A DNA stretch of 10,773 nt from a virus (IMGVR_UViG_2681813269_000008), one strand, 5' to 3'; shown: positions 711-10,642, counted from the first letter of the stretch. Numbers and translations are program-made. The notes: a model not told the origin generated them from the letters alone.

Positions 711-1148
711 TACGGTCCTCCTCCCCGGAGGGGGGCATTTCATTATTTTTCTAATCGTTACTGGTGAGAAGGCGGAAGAAAAAGCCAGTTCTTCGCCCCT
801 AAATAACAGCATGATTCCAGTCCATGCAAAATCTGATTTCCAGCTCACACATACCGAGCGCTGTACAAAAAACCGCCAGCCAAGGCAGTTAAGAGTGTGT
901 TCCCGGGGTTTGCTTAGAATATTTTGTAAGTTGTCCGAAGAGATATTTACAACACCAGAATGATGAATCATCAGTCCCCTGCCAGAGGTTCACTACGTAA
1001 CCTGACCGACAATGCACCATTCTGGTGCTGAAAAAAGAGCACTGGAACTGCAACAAAACAACATCACAGAACAGGAGATGGTAAGGAGTCAGACATTCCC
1101 ACACAATATTGTGTCAGTGCAAATAACAACCTTCGTCTCAAATCTCGC

Positions 1149-1223
1149 TGGAGCGGGCAGCGGGAATCGAACCCGCATCATCAGCTTGGAAGGCTGAGGT
1201 AATAGCCATTATACGATGCCCGC
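1149..1223 (-). tRNA. tRNA-Gly (anticodon TCC)
   Basis: Minus-strand sequence GCGGGCATCGTATAATGGCTATTACCTCAGCCTTCCAAGCTGATGATGCGGGTTCGATTCCCGCTGCCCGCTCCA folds as a cloverleaf. Anticodon loop CTTCCAA, T-loop GGTTCGATTCC, encoded CCA. It closely resembles enterobacterial tRNA-Gly2 as I recall it. Confidence 0.9.
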
Positions 1224-1226
1224 ATA

Positions 1227-1302
1227 TGGTGCCGACTACCGGAATCGAACTGGTGACCTACTGATTACAAGTCAGTTGCTCTGCCTGCTGAGCTAAGTCG
1301 GC
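1227..1302 (-). tRNA. tRNA-Thr (anticodon TGT)
   Basis: Minus-strand GCCGACTTAGCTCAGCAGGCAGAGCAACTGACTTGTAATCAGTAGGTCACCAGTTCGATTCCGGTAGTCGGCACCA. Acceptor stem GCCGACT/AGTCGGC, anticodon stem ACTGA/TCAGT, loop CTTGTAA, encoded CCA. Confidence 0.9.
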
Positions 1303-1304
1303 GC

Positions 1305-1381
1305 TGGCCCACCACCGAGGACTCGAACCTCGCACCGTCAACTTAGAAGGTTGATGCTCTATCCGGATGAGCTAGTGGTGG
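1305..1381 (-). tRNA. tRNA-Arg (anticodon TCT)
   Basis: Minus-strand CCACCACTAGCTCATCCGGATAGAGCATCAACCTTCTAAGTTGACGGTGCGAGGTTCGAGTCCTCGGTGGTGGGCCA. Acceptor stem CCACCAC/GTGGTGG, anticodon stem TCAAC/GTTGA, loop CTTCTAA, encoded CCA. Confidence 0.88.
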
Positions 1382-1382
1382 T

Positions 1383-1459
1383 TGGTGGCCCTTGCTGGAC
1401 TTGAACCAGCGACCTGGCGATTATGAGTCGCTCGCTCTGACCAACTGAGCTAAAGGGCC
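1383..1459 (-). tRNA. tRNA with CAT anticodon, most likely tRNA-Ile2 (lysidine-modified), ileX/ileZ-like
   Basis: Minus-strand GGCCCTTTAGCTCAGTTGGTCAGAGCGAGCGACTCATAATCGCCAGGTCGCTGGTTCAAGTCCAGCAAGGGCCACCA. Anticodon loop CTCATAA. The body resembles E. coli tRNA-Ile2 rather than initiator or elongator tRNA-Met, as I recall them. Confidence 0.85.
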
Positions 1460-1547
1460 GGAGGCAGAATAATAACCATATGTCATCACATCTGCAAACT
1501 CATCTGACCACCAGCACGTTTAACGTCCTGTGCCGTTTTTCAGGTAT

Positions 1548-1573
1548 AAAAAAACCCGCTCATCGGCGGGTTT
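1548..1573 (-). terminator. Predicted rho-independent terminator (minus strand) downstream of the ORF6N-like gene
   Basis: Stem CCCGC (1555-1559) / GCGGG (1566-1570) with a 6-nt loop. On the minus strand it is followed by a 7-U run (complement of the A-run at 1548-1554). Confidence 0.6.
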
Positions 1574-1648
1574 AAGCTGTGTGGCGTAGTAACCACTCTT
1601 AACAGGATATTCAACTTTTTACGATCGTAAAGTTTTCGGAAAAAATTT

Positions 1649-7671: not shown

Positions 7672-8026
7672 GTCCTTTCGAATATTTTGATTTACCCCTT
7701 TTGAGAGGGTGACCGGGCGCTCAAAACCGTCGAAAGTCGGCGGGCGTATTTCCATTGCTGGTATTGTATTAGCCGCACACCCGGTCATAAACCAAGAATT
7801 CTGGACACAAAAAAACCACATGGCTATCGGGTGTGGATACCGCTTTCGAGGTGTTTTGAGCACCGCGGGGAAATGTAAACTGCAAACCTGAAACTGTCAA
7901 CACCGTCAGGTTCCAATCATCGGGTGGTGAGACGCACAGGGTTGGAACTACCGGGAAACCGACCGGCGAGCTTTTCAGCTCCCCCATGCGCCCCACCATA
8001 ATTCAGATGTGCGCGTGCATACGACA

Positions 8027-8050
8027 ATAAAAAACACGCTCGCGGCGTGT
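8027..8050 (-). terminator. tR'-like intrinsic terminator, copy 2
   Basis: Identical to 2574-2597 (offset 5453). Confidence 0.55.
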
Positions 8051-8111
8051 GTCTGTCGCGGTCTCTATCCGGGGTTCCAATCCCGACGCCAGATTTTGCT
8101 GGCGCGTGAGG

Positions 8112-8141
8112 AATATAGCCCCGGACAATGTGTCTGGTCAA
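8112..8141 (-). promoter_or_regulatory. PR'-like late promoter, copy 2
   Basis: Identical to 2659-2688 (offset 5453). Confidence 0.55.
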
Positions 8142-8145
8142 GCAC

Positions 8146-8532
8146 CTACATAATTCGTTCTACGTATCTGTCCATCTCCAGCCGGATATCAAGCATCATC
8201 AACATGCCATCAATAACCCCTTCCGCTTTCTGCAGGCGCTTGCCAATACAGGTATCCGAACACCCATGTTTCCGTGCCAGACTCATAAAAGTCATTCCAC
8301 CTACGTAATAATCCACCAGCAAATCGTGCAAATCCTGATTTTTCTTGTTCAACCGGGCCATACAGCCACAAATTATCATTGCATCATCATCAGAACACTG
8401 AGGGCGTGATTTCACTTTCGACGGAATTAACCCTTTAAAACCAGCAGCGATCGACGCCCAGGATACATCTTCATGAGTGTTTGCAGCCCAAGCCCCCCAC
8501 CGTTCCATAACCTGCTGAATATCACGCGCCAT
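8146..8532 (-). CDS. Late antiterminator Q, copy 2
   Basis: Identical to 2693-3079; track ORF 8146-8553. Confidence 0.85.
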
Positions 8533-8893
8533 CGTTATCACCTGTGATTTCATAAATCTTCACGCCCAGTCGCCCACCAGGAACGAGCTGACCGCGCACA
8601 ATATTGATTTCATCAAACTGCTCGTCGTCTATGAGTAGTCCGGCATGCGTCAGCGCATCCAGTGGTGCTTTCAGGATATTGTCCAGGTCACGACGGCGCT
8701 TATCCGGTGGCTCTGCAATAATCTTTATCGCCAGCCTTCCGGACAGGTTTAATTTCAGCCGCTGCTGGCGAACAATTAGCGTCACATCACGGCGATAACG
8801 CTCACCAACTTTTGATACAAAATATGTGCTGCCACGACGTCGCCAGTAAGTATTCACCGTCGGCGGATAAGGTAAAATAAACTCATGGCGCAT
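8522..8893 (-). CDS. rusA: Holliday junction resolvase RusA, copy 2
   Basis: Identical to 3069-3440. Confidence 0.9.
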
Positions 8894-9150
8894 CAGCGCA
8901 GCACCTCCTGCACCATTTTTTCAAACTTTCCAACTTTGGTTTCCAGCTCTGCCACACAATCAACGAGCTCATCCACCGCTTTTTGTGCGCGATGTTTCGC
9001 CTGCATCAGTTCCCTGAGCGCTGGCACCATATCCCGACGAATGGCATCTTTTGTTACACCTGTTTTTTCCAGTTGTTCCGCCTGTCGCAACATTTCCTGC
9101 GCGTGTTTACGCAATTGTTCAGAGGTAAAAGTCATTGTCTGGTTGTTCAA
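8893..9150 (-). CDS. Small hypothetical coiled-coil phage protein, copy 2
   Basis: Identical to 3440-3697. Confidence 0.5.
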   Translation of the reverse strand: MNNQTMTFTSEQLRKHAQEMLRQAEQLEKTGVTKDAIRRDMVPALRELMQAKHRAQKAVDELVDCVAELETKVGKFEKMVQEVLR

Positions 9151-10538
9151 AAGAAACGCTCCATCTTACTGCTGTCGGTACGTGTATTGCTGTATCTGCG
9201 CGGCTGGGGCTGCCGCATTGGGGTGGAAAGAACCTGTGCGCTTTCCTGGTCCACAGGCAGAAAATGTCCGTTATAAAAACGCCGGTAAATCGTCCCCAGA
9301 GAACCGTTACGTTGTTTCGTGATATTAATTTCTGCTATGCCTGTAGCCTGTGTATCCGGGTTGTACACTTCATCCCTGTAAAGCATCAGAATGATGTCTG
9401 CATCCGCCTCTATTTCTCCGGAATTTTTCAGGTCTGAGTTCATGGGACGTTTATTGGGTCTGGACTCCACACCGCGGGAGAGCTGGCTCAGCGCAATCAA
9501 CGGAAAACCACCGGATTTTGCCAGGCCTTTAAGCCCCTTTGAGATTTCACCCACGGCAAGGTCATGACGCCCCGTGGTTCGGGTTTTTATCAGCCCGAGA
9601 TAATCAACCACCACCAGCGCCGTTTCCGGATGTTTAATCAGATGGTGTTTCGTTGTTGCGCATATCTCATCAATGGTCAGGTTCGCCTGGTCCACCATCC
9701 AGATATTGCGCCCGGTCATCCGCCCCACCCCTTGTGAGAAACGCGCCCAGTCTTCATCTTCAAAGTGAGCCACAGATTTCAGGCGTGATACTGGCATCCC
9801 TCCAGCCGCAGACACCATACGTTCACCAATCTGGATGTTCGCCATCTCCATGGTGAACAGAAGCACACCATGCCCCTGCTCAGTCACCTTGTCGATGATG
9901 TCCAGCGCAAGTTCGGTTTTCCCCATCGAAGGACGGGCGGCAATGAATACCAGGTCTCCGGGCTCCATACCGCCTGTTTTTGCGTCCAGTTCATCAATAC
10001 CGGTCATCAACGTCCTGGATTTCTCCAGCCCCTGATTCCGGCATTCAACACGCTCAACCACTTCCGGAAGCACATCATCAATATGTACCGGCTGAATGAC
10101 GCCCTTTCCTGTCGACAGTGTGACCATCATGTTCTGCGCATCCTTCAGGGCATCTTCAGCTGCTTCACAGGTATGCGCATCACGTAATTTCTGCAGCGCC
10201 TCATTCAGTGTTTTTTCTGCATCGCGCAGTGCGGCATTGCGCCGCAACGCTGCAACATAGTGCTCCAGTGAAGACTTCACCCAGGTTTTACGCCCGGTAT
10301 CAGTAATCACCGGGGCAAGTTCCGGCATCTCATTACACAACAGCACGGGGTCAATCACTCCTGAAACACGGGCCTGTCTGCAGATGCCTGTGTAGATATC
10401 CCGATACGCTCGTACAGAAAAAATGTCCGCCGGTAGTGTGATCAGAATATCCATCACTTCATGATCTGCCCCACGCAGAAAGAATGCGCCAATGACAGCG
10501 CCTTCCAGGTCATCATTACGCCAGACTGGTGTTGTCAT
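9147..10538 (-). CDS. Phage replicative DNA helicase, DnaB family, copy 2
   Basis: Identical to 3694-5085. The 510-aa track ORF (to 10679) is an artefactual in-frame extension across 49 bp of flank and the IS2-like terminus. Confidence 0.9.
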   Translation of the reverse strand: MTTPVWRNDDLEGAVIGAFFLRGADHEVMDILITLPADIFSVRAYRDIYTGICRQARVSGVIDPVLLCNEMPELAPVITDTGRKTWVKSSLEHYVAALRRNAALRDAEKTLNEALQKLRDAHTCEAAEDALKDAQNMMVTLSTGKGVIQPVHIDDVLPEVVERVECRNQGLEKSRTLMTGIDELDAKTGGMEPGDLVFIAARPSMGKTELALDIIDKVTEQGHGVLLFTMEMANIQIGERMVSAAGGMPVSRLKSVAHFEDEDWARFSQGVGRMTGRNIWMVDQANLTIDEICATTKHHLIKHPETALVVVDYLGLIKTRTTGRHDLAVGEISKGLKGLAKSGGFPLIALSQLSRGVESRPNKRPMNSDLKNSGEIEADADIILMLYRDEVYNPDTQATGIAEINITKQRNGSLGTIYRRFYNGHFLPVDQESAQVLSTPMRQPQPRRYSNTRTDSSKMERFF

Positions 10539-10642
10539 GCAGCCACACCTCTGATACAAGAACGGTAGCTGGGCCAGTTGAACGACAACCAGTTGCGCCC
10601 CCCGTCTGTGATCCTGTCGGCAATGCGGGGGCTGATGAACGC
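10535..10642 (-). pseudogene. 3' remnant of the gene upstream of the helicase (probable replication initiator or helicase loader), cut by the IS2-like insertion
   Basis: Minus-strand frame ...[35 protein letters not shown] ends in a TGA that overlaps the helicase ATG (ATGA coupling). The frame is open right up to the IS2-like terminus at 10643. No family assignment is possible from 35 codons. Confidence 0.35.

What the first reader, a model, noticed from the sequence alone, without database searches (positions are those of the whole stretch)
1148..10593. Identical 3,993-bp direct repeat of a prophage late/replication module, separated by IS debris
Segments 1148-5140 and 6601-10593 appear 100% identical. 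Each carries four tRNAs, an ORF6N-like gene, PR'/tR', Q, rusA, a small ORF and a DnaB-family helicase, and each has an IS2-like sequence on its helicase-proximal side. Only copy 1 is contiguous with the lysis genes; copy 2 is bounded by IS sequences on both sides. Identity this complete implies a very recent duplication, gene conversion, IS-mediated juxtaposition of two near-identical prophages, or an assembly artefact. Either copy can drive recombination, giving amplification or deletion of the unit.
Basis: seen in the sequence. Interest (0 to 1): 0.7.

Follow-up and report, generated by a model that had tools for sequence, protein, structure and literature searches.

The report
Duplicated prophage segment in Shigella sonnei
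A 4-kb piece of a decayed prophage in a Shigella sonnei chromosome is present twice in a row, joined by fragments of two insertion sequences; this is an ordinary, probably recent and unstable rearrangement of a kind that is common in Shigella.

Summary
Positions 1148-5140 and 6601-10593 are identical (3,993 bp, 0 mismatches). The repeat is longer than reported. After 81 bp found only in copy 2, identity resumes (5140-5239 = 10674-10773) and runs off the window end.

The DNA is Shigella sonnei. Complete S. sonnei chromosomes carry the module once, as holin - 679-bp spacer - module - 81 bp - complete IS2, and are 100% identical to both copies.

Both copies share the same IS2 insertion site and the same IS2 allele. 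So this is a secondary duplication of an already IS2-truncated phiP27-like prophage remnant, not two prophages acquired independently.

The 1,460-bp joint has three parts:
- IS2 positions 32-147.
- IS600 positions 101-1264.
- 181 bp from a second resident prophage, which shares a 412-bp four-tRNA block with the first.

The left edge of the repeat is where that homology begins. The two joints that define the duplication (5140/5141 and 5255/5256) are illegitimate junctions and were found in no other public sequence I could search. A real, strain-private duplication is the most likely reading (about 0.65). An assembly artefact cannot be excluded (about 0.2). The finding is of low interest and is a known kind of event.

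The parts
1..253 (-). 5' part of the phage lysozyme gene, which runs off the window
   Evidence: By coordinate transfer this corresponds to the 165-aa PF00959 gene called at L005 14833-15330.
253..468 (-). Class II holin gene (71 aa); only copy 1 is linked to it
   Evidence: PF04971, E=1.5e-35. Called as a 71-aa gene in S. sonnei genomes.
469..1147 (.). Spacer 'A', the native left flank of copy 1 between holin and tRNA-Gly
   Evidence: Window 900-1400 is 99.6% identical and contiguous in 9 E. coli genomes. It is 100% identical in the S. sonnei chromosomes.
1148..5140 (-). Copy 1 of the repeated module (3,993 bp)
   Evidence: Identical to 6601-10593.
1148..1559 (-). 412-bp tRNA block T: tRNA-Gly(TCC), Thr(TGT), Arg(TCT), Ile2(CAT), plus 100 bp. 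It is shared at 100% identity with a second prophage type and is the probable site of homologous exchange
   Evidence: ARAGORN and Rfam. Flank classification of 50 loci. The fourth tRNA is identical to the gene annotated tRNA-Ile in L001.
1649..2212 (-). ORF6N-domain gene (187 aa as called in S. sonnei), a probable antirepressor-type protein
   Evidence: PF10543, E=1.5e-20. Gene call transferred from L005 12874-13437.
2250..2688 (-). Regulatory RNA region between Q and ORF6N. It holds a promoter-like site (2688-2659), c4-a1b1 (2665-2613), isrK (2652-2576) with a terminator-like hairpin (2597-2581), C4 antisense RNA (2550-2467) and sRNA-Xcc1 (2333-2250)
   Evidence: All Rfam matches are above gathering score. 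Consensus promoter and terminator scan.
2693..3079 (-). Q antiterminator gene (128 aa)
   Evidence: PF06530, E=2.7e-52. The exact protein is named 'antiterminator Q family protein [Shigella sonnei]'.
3069..3440 (-). RusA Holliday-junction resolvase gene (123 aa)
   Evidence: PF05866 and NF007305.
3440..3697 (-). 85-aa ORF of unknown function
   Evidence: Called as an 85-aa gene in S. sonnei genomes. No family match.
3694..5085 (-). DnaB-type replicative helicase gene (463 aa), intact in both copies
   Evidence: TIGR00665 at 8.6e-92 and PF03796 at 8.6e-73. The exact 463-aa protein is found in S. sonnei chromosomes. The region is 94.3% identical to phage phiP27.
5140..5141 (.). Novel joint j1. 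It is an 81-bp deletion relative to copy 2 and to the reference, removing 49 bp of the loader-gene remnant and the outer 31 bp of IS2. It lies between the imperfect short repeats GACAACCAGT-T and GACACCTGT-T
   Evidence: The 44-mer across it is absent from GTDB representative genomes, IMG/VR and JGI metagenomes.
5140..5255 (-). IS2 fragment, IS2 positions 32-147 counted from the helicase-side terminus
   Evidence: 100% identical to the IS2 copy that adjoins the helicase in S. sonnei (L005 9865-9750). Other IS2 copies are 94.8% identical. Numbering.
5255..5256 (.). Novel joint j2: IS2 position 147 joined to IS600 position 101, with essentially no microhomology
   Evidence: The 44-mer across it is absent from IMG/VR. 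No E. coli genome covers 5060-5400.
5256..6419 (+). IS600 lacking its first 100 bp. OrfA is truncated, OrfB (5558-6376) is intact, and the right terminus is at 6419
   Evidence: NF033516 IS3-family transposase, 1.1e-99. 99.7-99.9% identical to complete IS600 copies. 100% identical to the IS600 of the second prophage in L027.
6420..6600 (.). 181 bp of native holin-to-tRNA spacer from the second prophage type ('B181'); this is the left flank of copy 2
   Evidence: 100% identical and contiguous with tRNA-Gly/Thr in several E. coli genomes. The same IS600 insertion site, with a 3-bp CAC target duplication, is present in L030.
6601..10593 (-). Copy 2 of the repeated module, with the same genes at +5453
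10594..10642 (-). 49 bp of the 3' end of the DnaC-like helicase-loader gene; present in copy 2 only
   Evidence: E. coli prophage homology ends at 10642. The loader gene overlaps the helicase start in L001 and in phiP27.
10643..10773 (-). IS2, positions 1-131 including its terminal inverted repeat; it runs off the window
   Evidence: In the reference genomes a complete 1,331-bp IS2 lies here.

Best explanation
This is a real, evolutionarily recent, secondary duplication of a 4-kb segment of a decayed phiP27-like lambdoid prophage (P1) in a Shigella sonnei chromosome.

The ancestral state, seen in complete S. sonnei genomes, is holin - spacer A - [tRNA block T - ORF6N - Q - RusA - 85-aa ORF - helicase] - 49 bp of loader gene - complete IS2. 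In the window the bracketed module occurs twice in direct orientation. The 1,460-bp joint between the copies is built from sequence copied from elsewhere in the genome:
- 116 bp of the same IS2, starting 81 bp downstream of where copy 1 stops.
- IS600 from its position 101 to its right end.
- The 181 bp that separate that IS600 from the tRNA block in a second resident prophage (P2).

P1 and P2 are identical over the 412-bp tRNA block. The exchange returns to P1 inside that block, which is why the left edge of the repeat coincides with the outer end of tRNA-Gly.

Shown by the data: single copy in relatives; a shared IS2 insertion and allele; the P2 origin of IS600 plus the 181 bp; and two illegitimate joints.

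Inferred: the mechanism. One possibility is a single replication template-switching event, running from the module end to IS2, then to the IS600 of P2, then back through T into P1. The other is unequal homologous exchange between the T blocks of P1 and P2, followed by illegitimate deletions (IS2 position 147 to IS600 position 101, and the 81-bp deletion).

Consequences, inferred from established knowledge:
- The dosage of four phage tRNAs, Q, the isrK and C4 RNAs, ORF6N, RusA and the helicase is doubled.
- Only copy 1 can read through into the lysis genes.
- The 4-kb direct repeats should recombine readily and restore the reference single-copy state exactly.
For: - The repeat is exact, with one 81-bp indel.
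- One S. sonnei locus matches window 1-5140 and window 6601-10773, both at 100%, in several independent complete chromosomes (L005, L007, L008, L011) and a draft contig (L014); the other complete chromosomes fetched match at 99.7% or better. Six further IMG/VR contigs show the same single-copy arrangement.
- The exact helicase and Q proteins are named Shigella sonnei.
- The IS2 fragment beside copy 1 is 100% identical to the helicase-adjacent IS2 copy and 94.8% identical to other IS2 copies.
- The 181 bp plus tRNA-Gly/Thr are 100% identical to native prophage DNA in E. coli.
- The same IS600 insertion site occurs in intact P2-type prophage contigs, with a 3-bp target duplication.
- The 412-bp T block is found with all four flank combinations in public contigs, including a reciprocal pair within one genome. 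So exchange at T does happen, or at least is a recognised branch point.
- The consensus is clean: there are no Ns, and it is 100% identical to references over more than 9 kb.
- IS-associated duplications are reported in Shigella long-read comparisons (PMC8092226). Shigella reference chromosomes carry 229-348 IS copies (PMC7373316).
Against: - Neither duplication-specific joint was found in any other sequence searchable here. These were GTDB representative genomes, IMG/VR, JGI metagenomes and 5,426 E. coli genomes.
- ORFs that span the joints are not on record.
- So the arrangement rests on one assembly, and no read data are available.
- In PMC8092226 only one region among 20 duplication or deletion calls made from Shigella PacBio assemblies was consistent between short-read and long-read mapping.
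- The history needs at least three breakpoints, which is more complex than a simple IS-mediated duplication.
- The position and orientation of P2 relative to P1 in S. sonnei could not be determined.
Confidence: 0.65

Rival explanations
1. Assembly artefact. The strain has the ordinary single-copy P1 and a separate P2. The assembler, or chimeric reads, created a false second copy and the composite joint.
For: - The arrangement is unique to this window among everything searched.
- Draft contigs demonstrably mis-join or branch at the tRNA genes. L050 runs from the phage tRNA-Gly into host thrT-tufB. L027 has single-N scaffold joins.
- Most duplications and deletions called from Shigella PacBio assemblies in PMC8092226 were not confirmed.
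- The window ends 16 bp before the position that would show what follows copy 2.
Against: - The two novel joints (5140/5141 and 5255/5256) lie in non-repeated contexts with 0-1 bp of microhomology. A repeat-induced path error cannot create them, so reads must carry them.
- The copies differ by a clean 81-bp indel and have different flanks. A simple over-expansion of a repeat would not produce that.
- The consensus quality is very high (100% identity to references).
Confidence: 0.2
2. Tandem array from unequal crossing-over. P1 and P2 were already juxtaposed as A-T-module-81-IS2 fragment/IS600 fragment-181-T-P2 remainder. Unequal sister-chromatid exchange between the two 412-bp T blocks then duplicated the 5.5-kb unit. 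Copy 2 would then be followed again by the IS2 fragment, the IS600 fragment, the 181 bp and T, and the copy number could exceed two. This is a mechanistic variant of the best explanation.
For: - The T blocks are exact 412-bp direct repeats 5,453 bp apart. That makes them ideal substrates.
- The window ends at IS2 position 131, before position 147, so this continuation is not excluded.
Against: - The required precursor, which would carry joint j2, was not found in IMG/VR.
- All nine complete S. sonnei chromosomes examined have a complete IS2 followed by unrelated genes to the right of the module.
- The 81-bp difference between the copies still needs a separate event.
Confidence: 0.15
3. Two independently acquired, near-identical prophages brought side by side by IS-mediated deletion or rearrangement. 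In one version, gene conversion later homogenised them.
For: - The two left flanks (A and B181) are each native to different prophage types that sit at different chromosomal sites in relatives such as FDAARGOS_943.
- Lambdoid prophages in one genome often share modules.
Against: - Both copies have IS2 inserted at the same nucleotide, in the same orientation and with the same allele. Independent insertions would not give this.
- Reference S. sonnei genomes carry the module once.
- In contigs with the intact P2 type, the tRNA block is followed by DUF1133/1364/1367 genes rather than this module.
- Gene conversion that covered the IS2 junction would need homology to the right of it.
Confidence: 0.05

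Closest known systems
IS- and prophage-associated segmental duplications and structural variants in Shigella chromosomes (for example PMC8092226; IS expansion described in PMC7373316)
   Same: The host is an IS-rich Shigella chromosome. The event is a direct duplication of a few kb lying in a prophage remnant and bordered by IS2 and IS600. It is strain-specific and probably unstable.
   Different: The joint is not one intact IS formed by IS-IS homologous recombination. It is a composite of two truncated IS pieces joined illegitimately, plus 181 bp captured from a second prophage. One edge of the repeat lies in a shared tRNA block rather than in an IS.
Enterobacteria phage phiP27 (Stx2e-converting) and related lambdoid prophages: replication and late-control module
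   Same: The gene order matches: DnaC-like loader, DnaB-like helicase, small ORF, then Q. The helicase region is 94.3% identical to phiP27. As in many Stx-type and lambdoid prophages, Q is followed by tRNA genes and then holin and lysis genes.
   Different: This is a remnant. The loader and everything upstream of it are replaced by IS2 without a target duplication. The segment also carries RusA and an ORF6N gene with isrK/C4 RNAs, which did not match phiP27 in the DNA search (the phiP27 match covers only 3436-5140). Part of the remnant is duplicated.
Recombination between co-resident lambdoid prophages at shared modules (known from E. coli O157 and Shigella; cited from general knowledge)
   Same: A 412-bp block shared at 100% identity between two prophage types marks the exchange point. 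All four flank combinations exist in public contigs.
   Different: Here the outcome is a local duplication with a composite joint. The more usual outcomes are an inversion, a deletion or a simple mosaic phage.
Phage P1/P7 immI (C4 antisense RNA controlling an antirepressor) and the Salmonella Gifsy-1 IsrK locus
   Same: Rfam finds c4-a1b1, isrK, C4 and sRNA-Xcc1 in that order upstream of the ORF6N gene in each copy. From memory, this order resembles the P1 immI layout and the Gifsy-1 isrK-orf45-anrP layout.
   Different: The regulatory function was not tested here. It is a passenger of the duplication, not its cause.

Membership tests
Segmental (tandem-type) duplication | Two copies in direct orientation with (near-)identical sequence | tested here: met
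   3,993 bp are identical. After an 81-bp indel a further 100 bp are identical.
Segmental (tandem-type) duplication | The segment is single-copy in closely related genomes | tested here: met
   Nine complete S. sonnei chromosomes, one draft contig and six IMG/VR contigs each show one copy at this locus, with no second copy within 10 kb on either side in the chromosomes.
Segmental (tandem-type) duplication | A novel joint that is absent from the single-copy state | tested here: met
   Joints at 5140/5141 and 5255/5256 are absent from the reference loci and from all collections searched.
Segmental (tandem-type) duplication | Support from reads: long reads that span the region, and doubled depth | not testable with these tools
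   No read data are available and the source assembly was not identified.
Composite transposon (module flanked by two IS copies and moved as a unit) | Two IS copies of the same kind with functional outer ends flanking the segment | tested here: not met
   The flanks are different IS elements. The IS600 lacks its first 100 bp, and the IS2 fragment lacks its terminal 31 bp.
Composite transposon (module flanked by two IS copies and moved as a unit) | A target-site duplication flanking the inserted unit | tested here: not met
   The left edge of the repeat is a homology boundary at tRNA-Gly, and the right joints are blunt or 1-bp junctions.
Two independent prophages (polylysogeny or juxtaposition) | Independent histories of the two copies, shown by their own IS insertions and by sequence divergence | tested here: not met
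   The copies share the same IS2 insertion site, orientation and allele, and have 0 SNPs.
Lambdoid (phiP27-like) prophage late-control and replication module | Q antiterminator followed by a promoter and terminator, with lysis genes downstream | tested here: met
   PF06530. Promoter-like and terminator-like sites. Holin and lysozyme lie downstream of copy 1 only. The promoter and terminator are consensus matches, not shown function.
Lambdoid (phiP27-like) prophage late-control and replication module | Replication genes: DnaB-type helicase together with its loader | tested here: inconclusive
   The helicase is intact. Only about 100 bp of the loader remain in copy 2 and about 55 bp in copy 1. 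No origin or initiator is present, so the module cannot be a functional replicon.
P1 immI-like / IsrK-type RNA-controlled antirepressor locus | C4-type antisense RNA with its a1b1 target repeats upstream of an antirepressor-type gene | tested here: met
   RF01695 (71 bits), RF03163 (50.1 bits) and RF01394 (77.5 bits) all score above gathering, and they lie upstream of the ORF6N gene. Regulation was not tested.

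The most novel reading that the evidence does not exclude
The 5.45-kb unit (tRNA block, ORF6N, Q, RusA, helicase and the IS joint) is a selected, amplifiable unit rather than a neutral accident. On this reading the array extends beyond the window, or varies in copy number within the population. It would raise the dosage of the phage tRNAs for rare codons (Arg-UCU, Ile2-CAU, Thr-UGU, Gly-UCC) and of the Q/IsrK/C4 regulators. 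That could benefit expression of AT-rich virulence genes. It could also mark a recurrent template-switching hotspot at the IS2 end, where a 10-nt phage sequence mimics the other IS2 end.
Probability: 0.07. Interest if true: 0.4.

Novelty: new member of a known kind. Interest (0 to 1): 0.15.

Why it matters
It matters only modestly. If the duplication is real, it is one more example of how IS elements and co-resident prophages that share modules reshape Shigella chromosomes. It doubles four phage tRNA genes and several phage regulators, and it creates an unstable 4-kb direct repeat that can collapse back to the reference state.

The practical value is as a caution. The region is a trap for assembly and for prophage or tRNA gene counts. 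The phage tRNA-Gly is identical to host glyT. A 412-bp tRNA block is shared between prophages, and draft contigs swap paths there. The composite joint is a tidy case for studying illegitimate joins next to an IS end, but nothing here challenges current understanding.

Tried and rejected
- **Finding the source assembly or a second instance.** Exact 44-mers across joint j1 were searched in GTDB representative genomes, IMG/VR and JGI metagenomes, and across j2 in IMG/VR. None matched. BLAST of both joints and of the whole window against 5,426 complete E. coli genomes found no place covering 80% or more.
- **Exact-protein look-ups.** The two junction-spanning ORFs (72 aa and 483 aa) are not on record. 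The consensus IS600 OrfB and a 41-aa truncated OrfA returned only unrelated IS600 copies.
- **Placing the second prophage on S. sonnei chromosomes.** A homology search gave only 90%-cluster representatives, not the exact protein. The S. sonnei 53G RefSeq accession is not in the annotated collections.
- **L027.** It appeared to join spacer A directly to a truncated IS600. I rejected it as evidence because the joins are single-N scaffold gaps.
- **L050.** It appeared to show a third left flank. It is host glyT-thrT-tufB reached through the tRNA-Gly repeat.
- **Plasmid hits H50 and H51.** They carry IS2 next to an IS600 fragment, but the order and junction are different.
- **Composite transposon, and two independent prophages.** Both were rejected; see the membership tests.

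Full report
**Observation.** A direct string comparison shows that 1148-5140 and 6601-10593 are identical over 3,993 bp with no mismatch. The exact match cannot be extended by one base on either side. Self-BLAST and the repeat finder add a second collinear block: 5140-5239 equals 10674-10773 (100 bp, exact), offset by 81 bp and reaching the last base of the window. The repeat is therefore at least 4,092 bp long, contains one 81-bp indel (10594-10674, present only in copy 2), and is truncated by the window edge. Chance is not an issue at this length.

**Contents of each copy (genes on the minus strand).**
- Four tRNAs: Gly-TCC, Thr-TGT, Arg-TCT, and a CAT-anticodon tRNA that ARAGORN calls Met. 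The CAT tRNA is base-for-base identical to the gene annotated tRNA-Ile in a related E. coli prophage, so it is a tRNA-Ile2 type.
- An ORF6N-domain gene, a Q antiterminator (PF06530), RusA, an 85-aa ORF and a DnaB-type helicase.
- The helicase gene starts at the internal ATG (463 aa, 3694-5085), as called in all related genomes. It is intact in both copies, because the 81-bp indel lies upstream of it.
- Rfam identifies this unit as isrK. It is flanked by c4-a1b1, then followed by a C4 antisense RNA and sRNA-Xcc1, all upstream of the ORF6N gene and all above gathering score.
- Upstream of copy 1 lie a class II holin gene (253-468) and the start of a lysozyme gene.

**The spacer and the joints.**
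- *Copy 2, right side.* The helicase is followed by 49 bp of the 3' end of the DnaC-like loader gene. Homology to E. coli prophages and to phiP27 ends at 10642. An intact IS2 terminus follows (TGGATTTGCCCCTATATTTCCAGACACCTGT...).
- *Joint j1.* Copy 1 lacks exactly those 49 bp plus the outer 31 bp of IS2. The deletion end points lie in the imperfect short repeats GACAACCAGT-T and GACACCTGT-T.
- *IS2 fragment and joint j2.* Copy 1 continues with IS2 positions 32-147 (5140-5255). This is joined, essentially bluntly, to IS600 position 101 (joint j2, 5255/5256).
- *IS600.* It runs to its right terminus at 6419.
- *The 181 bp.* The next 181 bp (6420-6600) are ordinary phage DNA. They are 100% identical to, and contiguous with, tRNA-Gly/Thr in several E. 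coli prophages.
- *IS2 allele.* The IS2 fragment is 100% identical to the particular IS2 copy that adjoins the helicase in S. sonnei and only 94.8% identical to other IS2 copies.

**Related genomes.**
- The exact helicase protein is encoded in many Shigella sonnei chromosomes. The exact helicase and Q proteins are named S. sonnei or multispecies Shigella.
- In each of nine complete chromosomes, one draft contig and six IMG/VR contigs, a single locus matches both window 1-5140 and window 6601-10773; identity is 100% in several (L005, L007, L008, L011, L014) and at least 99.7% in the other chromosomes.
- So the reference state is holin - spacer A - module - 81 bp - complete IS2, in one copy. The window equals the reference plus an extra 5,453 bp (joint plus second module), with the 81-bp deletion.
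- No complete E. coli genome carries the arrangement.
- The left junction of copy 1 (A/tRNA-Gly) is native. It is 99.6% identical in nine EIEC-like E. coli genomes.
- The IS600/181-bp junction of copy 2 is also found elsewhere. Five IMG/VR contigs have it. In L030 and L031 a complete IS600 sits there with a 3-bp CAC target duplication, inside a second prophage type. In that prophage the tRNA block is followed by DUF1133/1364/1367 genes.
- The exact DUF1367 protein of that prophage is also S. sonnei, so both prophages are found in S. sonnei genomes. Its longest contig has the same length as the chromosome that carries L010, which suggests, without proving, that both sit in one genome.
- The two prophages are identical over 412 bp (1148-1559: the four tRNAs plus 100 bp). 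Classifying all fetched loci shows every combination of left flank (A or B181) and right flank (module or P2 remainder) around this block.
- One IMG genome holds a reciprocal pair: L029 (B181-T-module-IS2) and L056 (A-T-P2 remainder). That is either a real exchange or an assembler path swap. Draft contigs do go wrong here: L050 runs from the phage tRNA-Gly into host thrT-tufB, and L027 has N-joined scaffolds.

**Interpretation.**
- Both copies carry the same IS2 insertion: same base, same orientation, same allele. They therefore descend from one IS2-bearing module. This rules out two independently acquired prophages and makes the event a secondary duplication.
- The IS2 fragment in the joint must have been copied from a full IS2 next to a module. 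So the single-copy state came first and the window state is derived.
- The left edge of the repeat is not a breakpoint. It is the point where P2 sequence (the 181 bp) becomes identical to P1 sequence (tRNA-Gly), which implies a homologous transition inside the tRNA block.
- The right edge is illegitimate: j1 has 1 bp of exact microhomology within an imperfect 10-nt repeat, and j2 is blunt.
- Two histories fit, and I cannot separate them:
  - One replication template-switching event, running from the module end to a point 81 bp ahead in IS2, then to IS600 of P2, then through the 181 bp and T back into P1.
  - Unequal homologous exchange between the T blocks of P1 and P2, followed by illegitimate deletions.
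- A third variant is a tandem array formed by unequal crossing-over between T blocks that were already juxtaposed. It is not excluded, because the window ends at IS2 position 131, 16 bp before the position where copy 1 switches to IS600.

**Age.** At the published S. sonnei rate of 6.0x10^-7 substitutions per site per year (PMC7373316), two 4.09-kb copies accumulate about 4.9x10^-3 differences per year (my arithmetic). Zero differences has 5% probability at about 610 years. Exact identity therefore says only that the event is younger than a few centuries. As I recall it, that is about the age of the S. sonnei clone, so the identity is not strong evidence of a very recent event. From general knowledge of tandem duplications, which I did not test, 4-kb direct repeats 1.5 kb apart should be lost frequently by homologous recombination. 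Such loss would regenerate the reference state exactly. That argues for a young or strain-private variant.

**Real or artefact.**
- *For an artefact.* The two defining joints occur in nothing else I could search. In a Shigella long-read study, only one region among 20 duplication or deletion calls was consistent between short-read and long-read mapping.
- *Against an artefact.* Repeat-induced path errors cannot create joints in unique sequence with 0-1 bp of homology. The copies differ by a clean indel and have different flanks. The consensus is otherwise perfect.
- *My estimate.* About 0.65 for a real duplication, about 0.2 for an artefact, with the remainder spread over the other variants.

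**Comparison with what is known, and novelty.**
- The module is a remnant of a phiP27-like lambdoid prophage. The helicase region is 94.3% identical to phiP27.
- The remnant was truncated by an IS2-associated deletion, since there is no 5-bp target duplication around the reference IS2.
- IS expansion (229-348 IS copies per Shigella reference chromosome, including IS2 and IS600) and IS- or prophage-associated duplications are well documented in Shigella.
- The structure is not a composite transposon, because both IS pieces lack an end and they are different elements.
- It is a new instance of a known kind of event. The somewhat unusual feature is a composite, templated joint rather than a single hybrid IS.
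- Interest is low.

**Limits.**
- The source genome was not identified and no reads are available.
- The sequence to the right of 10773 is unknown.
- The position and orientation of the second prophage in S. sonnei could not be obtained with the permitted look-ups.

Noticed in passing
window 2250-2688 and 7703-8141 (minus strand): Between Q and the ORF6N gene, Rfam finds c4-a1b1, isrK, C4 antisense RNA and sRNA-Xcc1, all above gathering score. The layout resembles an RNA-controlled antirepressor locus of the P1 immI or Gifsy-1 IsrK type.
   Followed up: partly
window 1149-1223 / 6602-6676; L050 5171-5537: The phage tRNA-Gly(TCC) appears identical to host glyT. IMG/VR contig L050 passes from the module through this tRNA straight into host thrT and tufB. 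Draft assemblies therefore mis-join or branch at this point.
   Followed up: partly
window 1383-1459 / 6836-6912: ARAGORN calls the CAT-anticodon tRNA Met. It is identical to a gene that PGAP annotates as tRNA-Ile in E. coli VL40 (L001 6730-6806), so it is a tRNA-Ile2 (lysidine) type.
   Followed up: yes
window 10584-10593 / 5131-5148; IS2 far end in L005: The phage sequence GACAACCAGT, 49 bp from the IS2 insertion, is identical to the inner part of the other IS2 terminal repeat. The 81-bp deletion joint in copy 1 recreates an 18-nt string (GACAACCAGTATCACTTA) identical to that IS2 end. This could reflect IS2 target preference for end-like sequences, or it could simply have provided the slippage homology.
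   Followed up: partly
L005 about 8566-9896 (reference IS2 beside the helicase): The complete IS2 in reference S. sonnei has no 5-bp target duplication (flanks ...GAACGC and GCAACT...). An IS2-associated deletion therefore removed the prophage's loader and early region.
   Followed up: partly
L029 and L056 (both from IMG genome 2529293265): One genome holds IS600-181 bp-tRNAs-module-IS2 and also A-tRNAs-DUF1133-type prophage. This is the reciprocal of the arrangement in complete S. sonnei genomes. It is either a real inversion or translocation between two prophages at the 412-bp tRNA block, or an assembler path swap.
   Followed up: partly
L052 and L063 (both from IMG genome 2869924733): Two separate contigs from one genome both carry spacer A - tRNA block - P2-type genes. 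This may be another duplicated prophage segment in a different genome.
   Followed up: no
L027 positions 3687 and 4113: This IMG/VR contig has single-N joins exactly at its unusual junctions, and a 325-bp stretch of spacer A is present twice. It is a scaffold and should not be used as evidence of adjacency.
   Followed up: yes
L002, L003, L016 (NZ_CP065615.1, 'E. coli' FDAARGOS_943): This record is labelled E. coli. It carries a Shigella-like IS load (many IS600 copies, ISSso6, ISSfl3, IS2) and three lambdoid prophage remnants with the same tRNA cluster at separate loci. One of them has IS600 inserted 56 bp away from the site used in the window.
   Followed up: no
window 469-1147: The 679-bp spacer between holin and tRNA-Gly has ORFs of 71-98 aa; the one tested (675-971, 98 aa) matched no family in Pfam or NCBIfam. 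Relatives annotate only a partial YdfR-family pseudogene nearby. It is unrelated in sequence to the 181-bp spacer that occupies the same position in the second prophage type.
   Followed up: no
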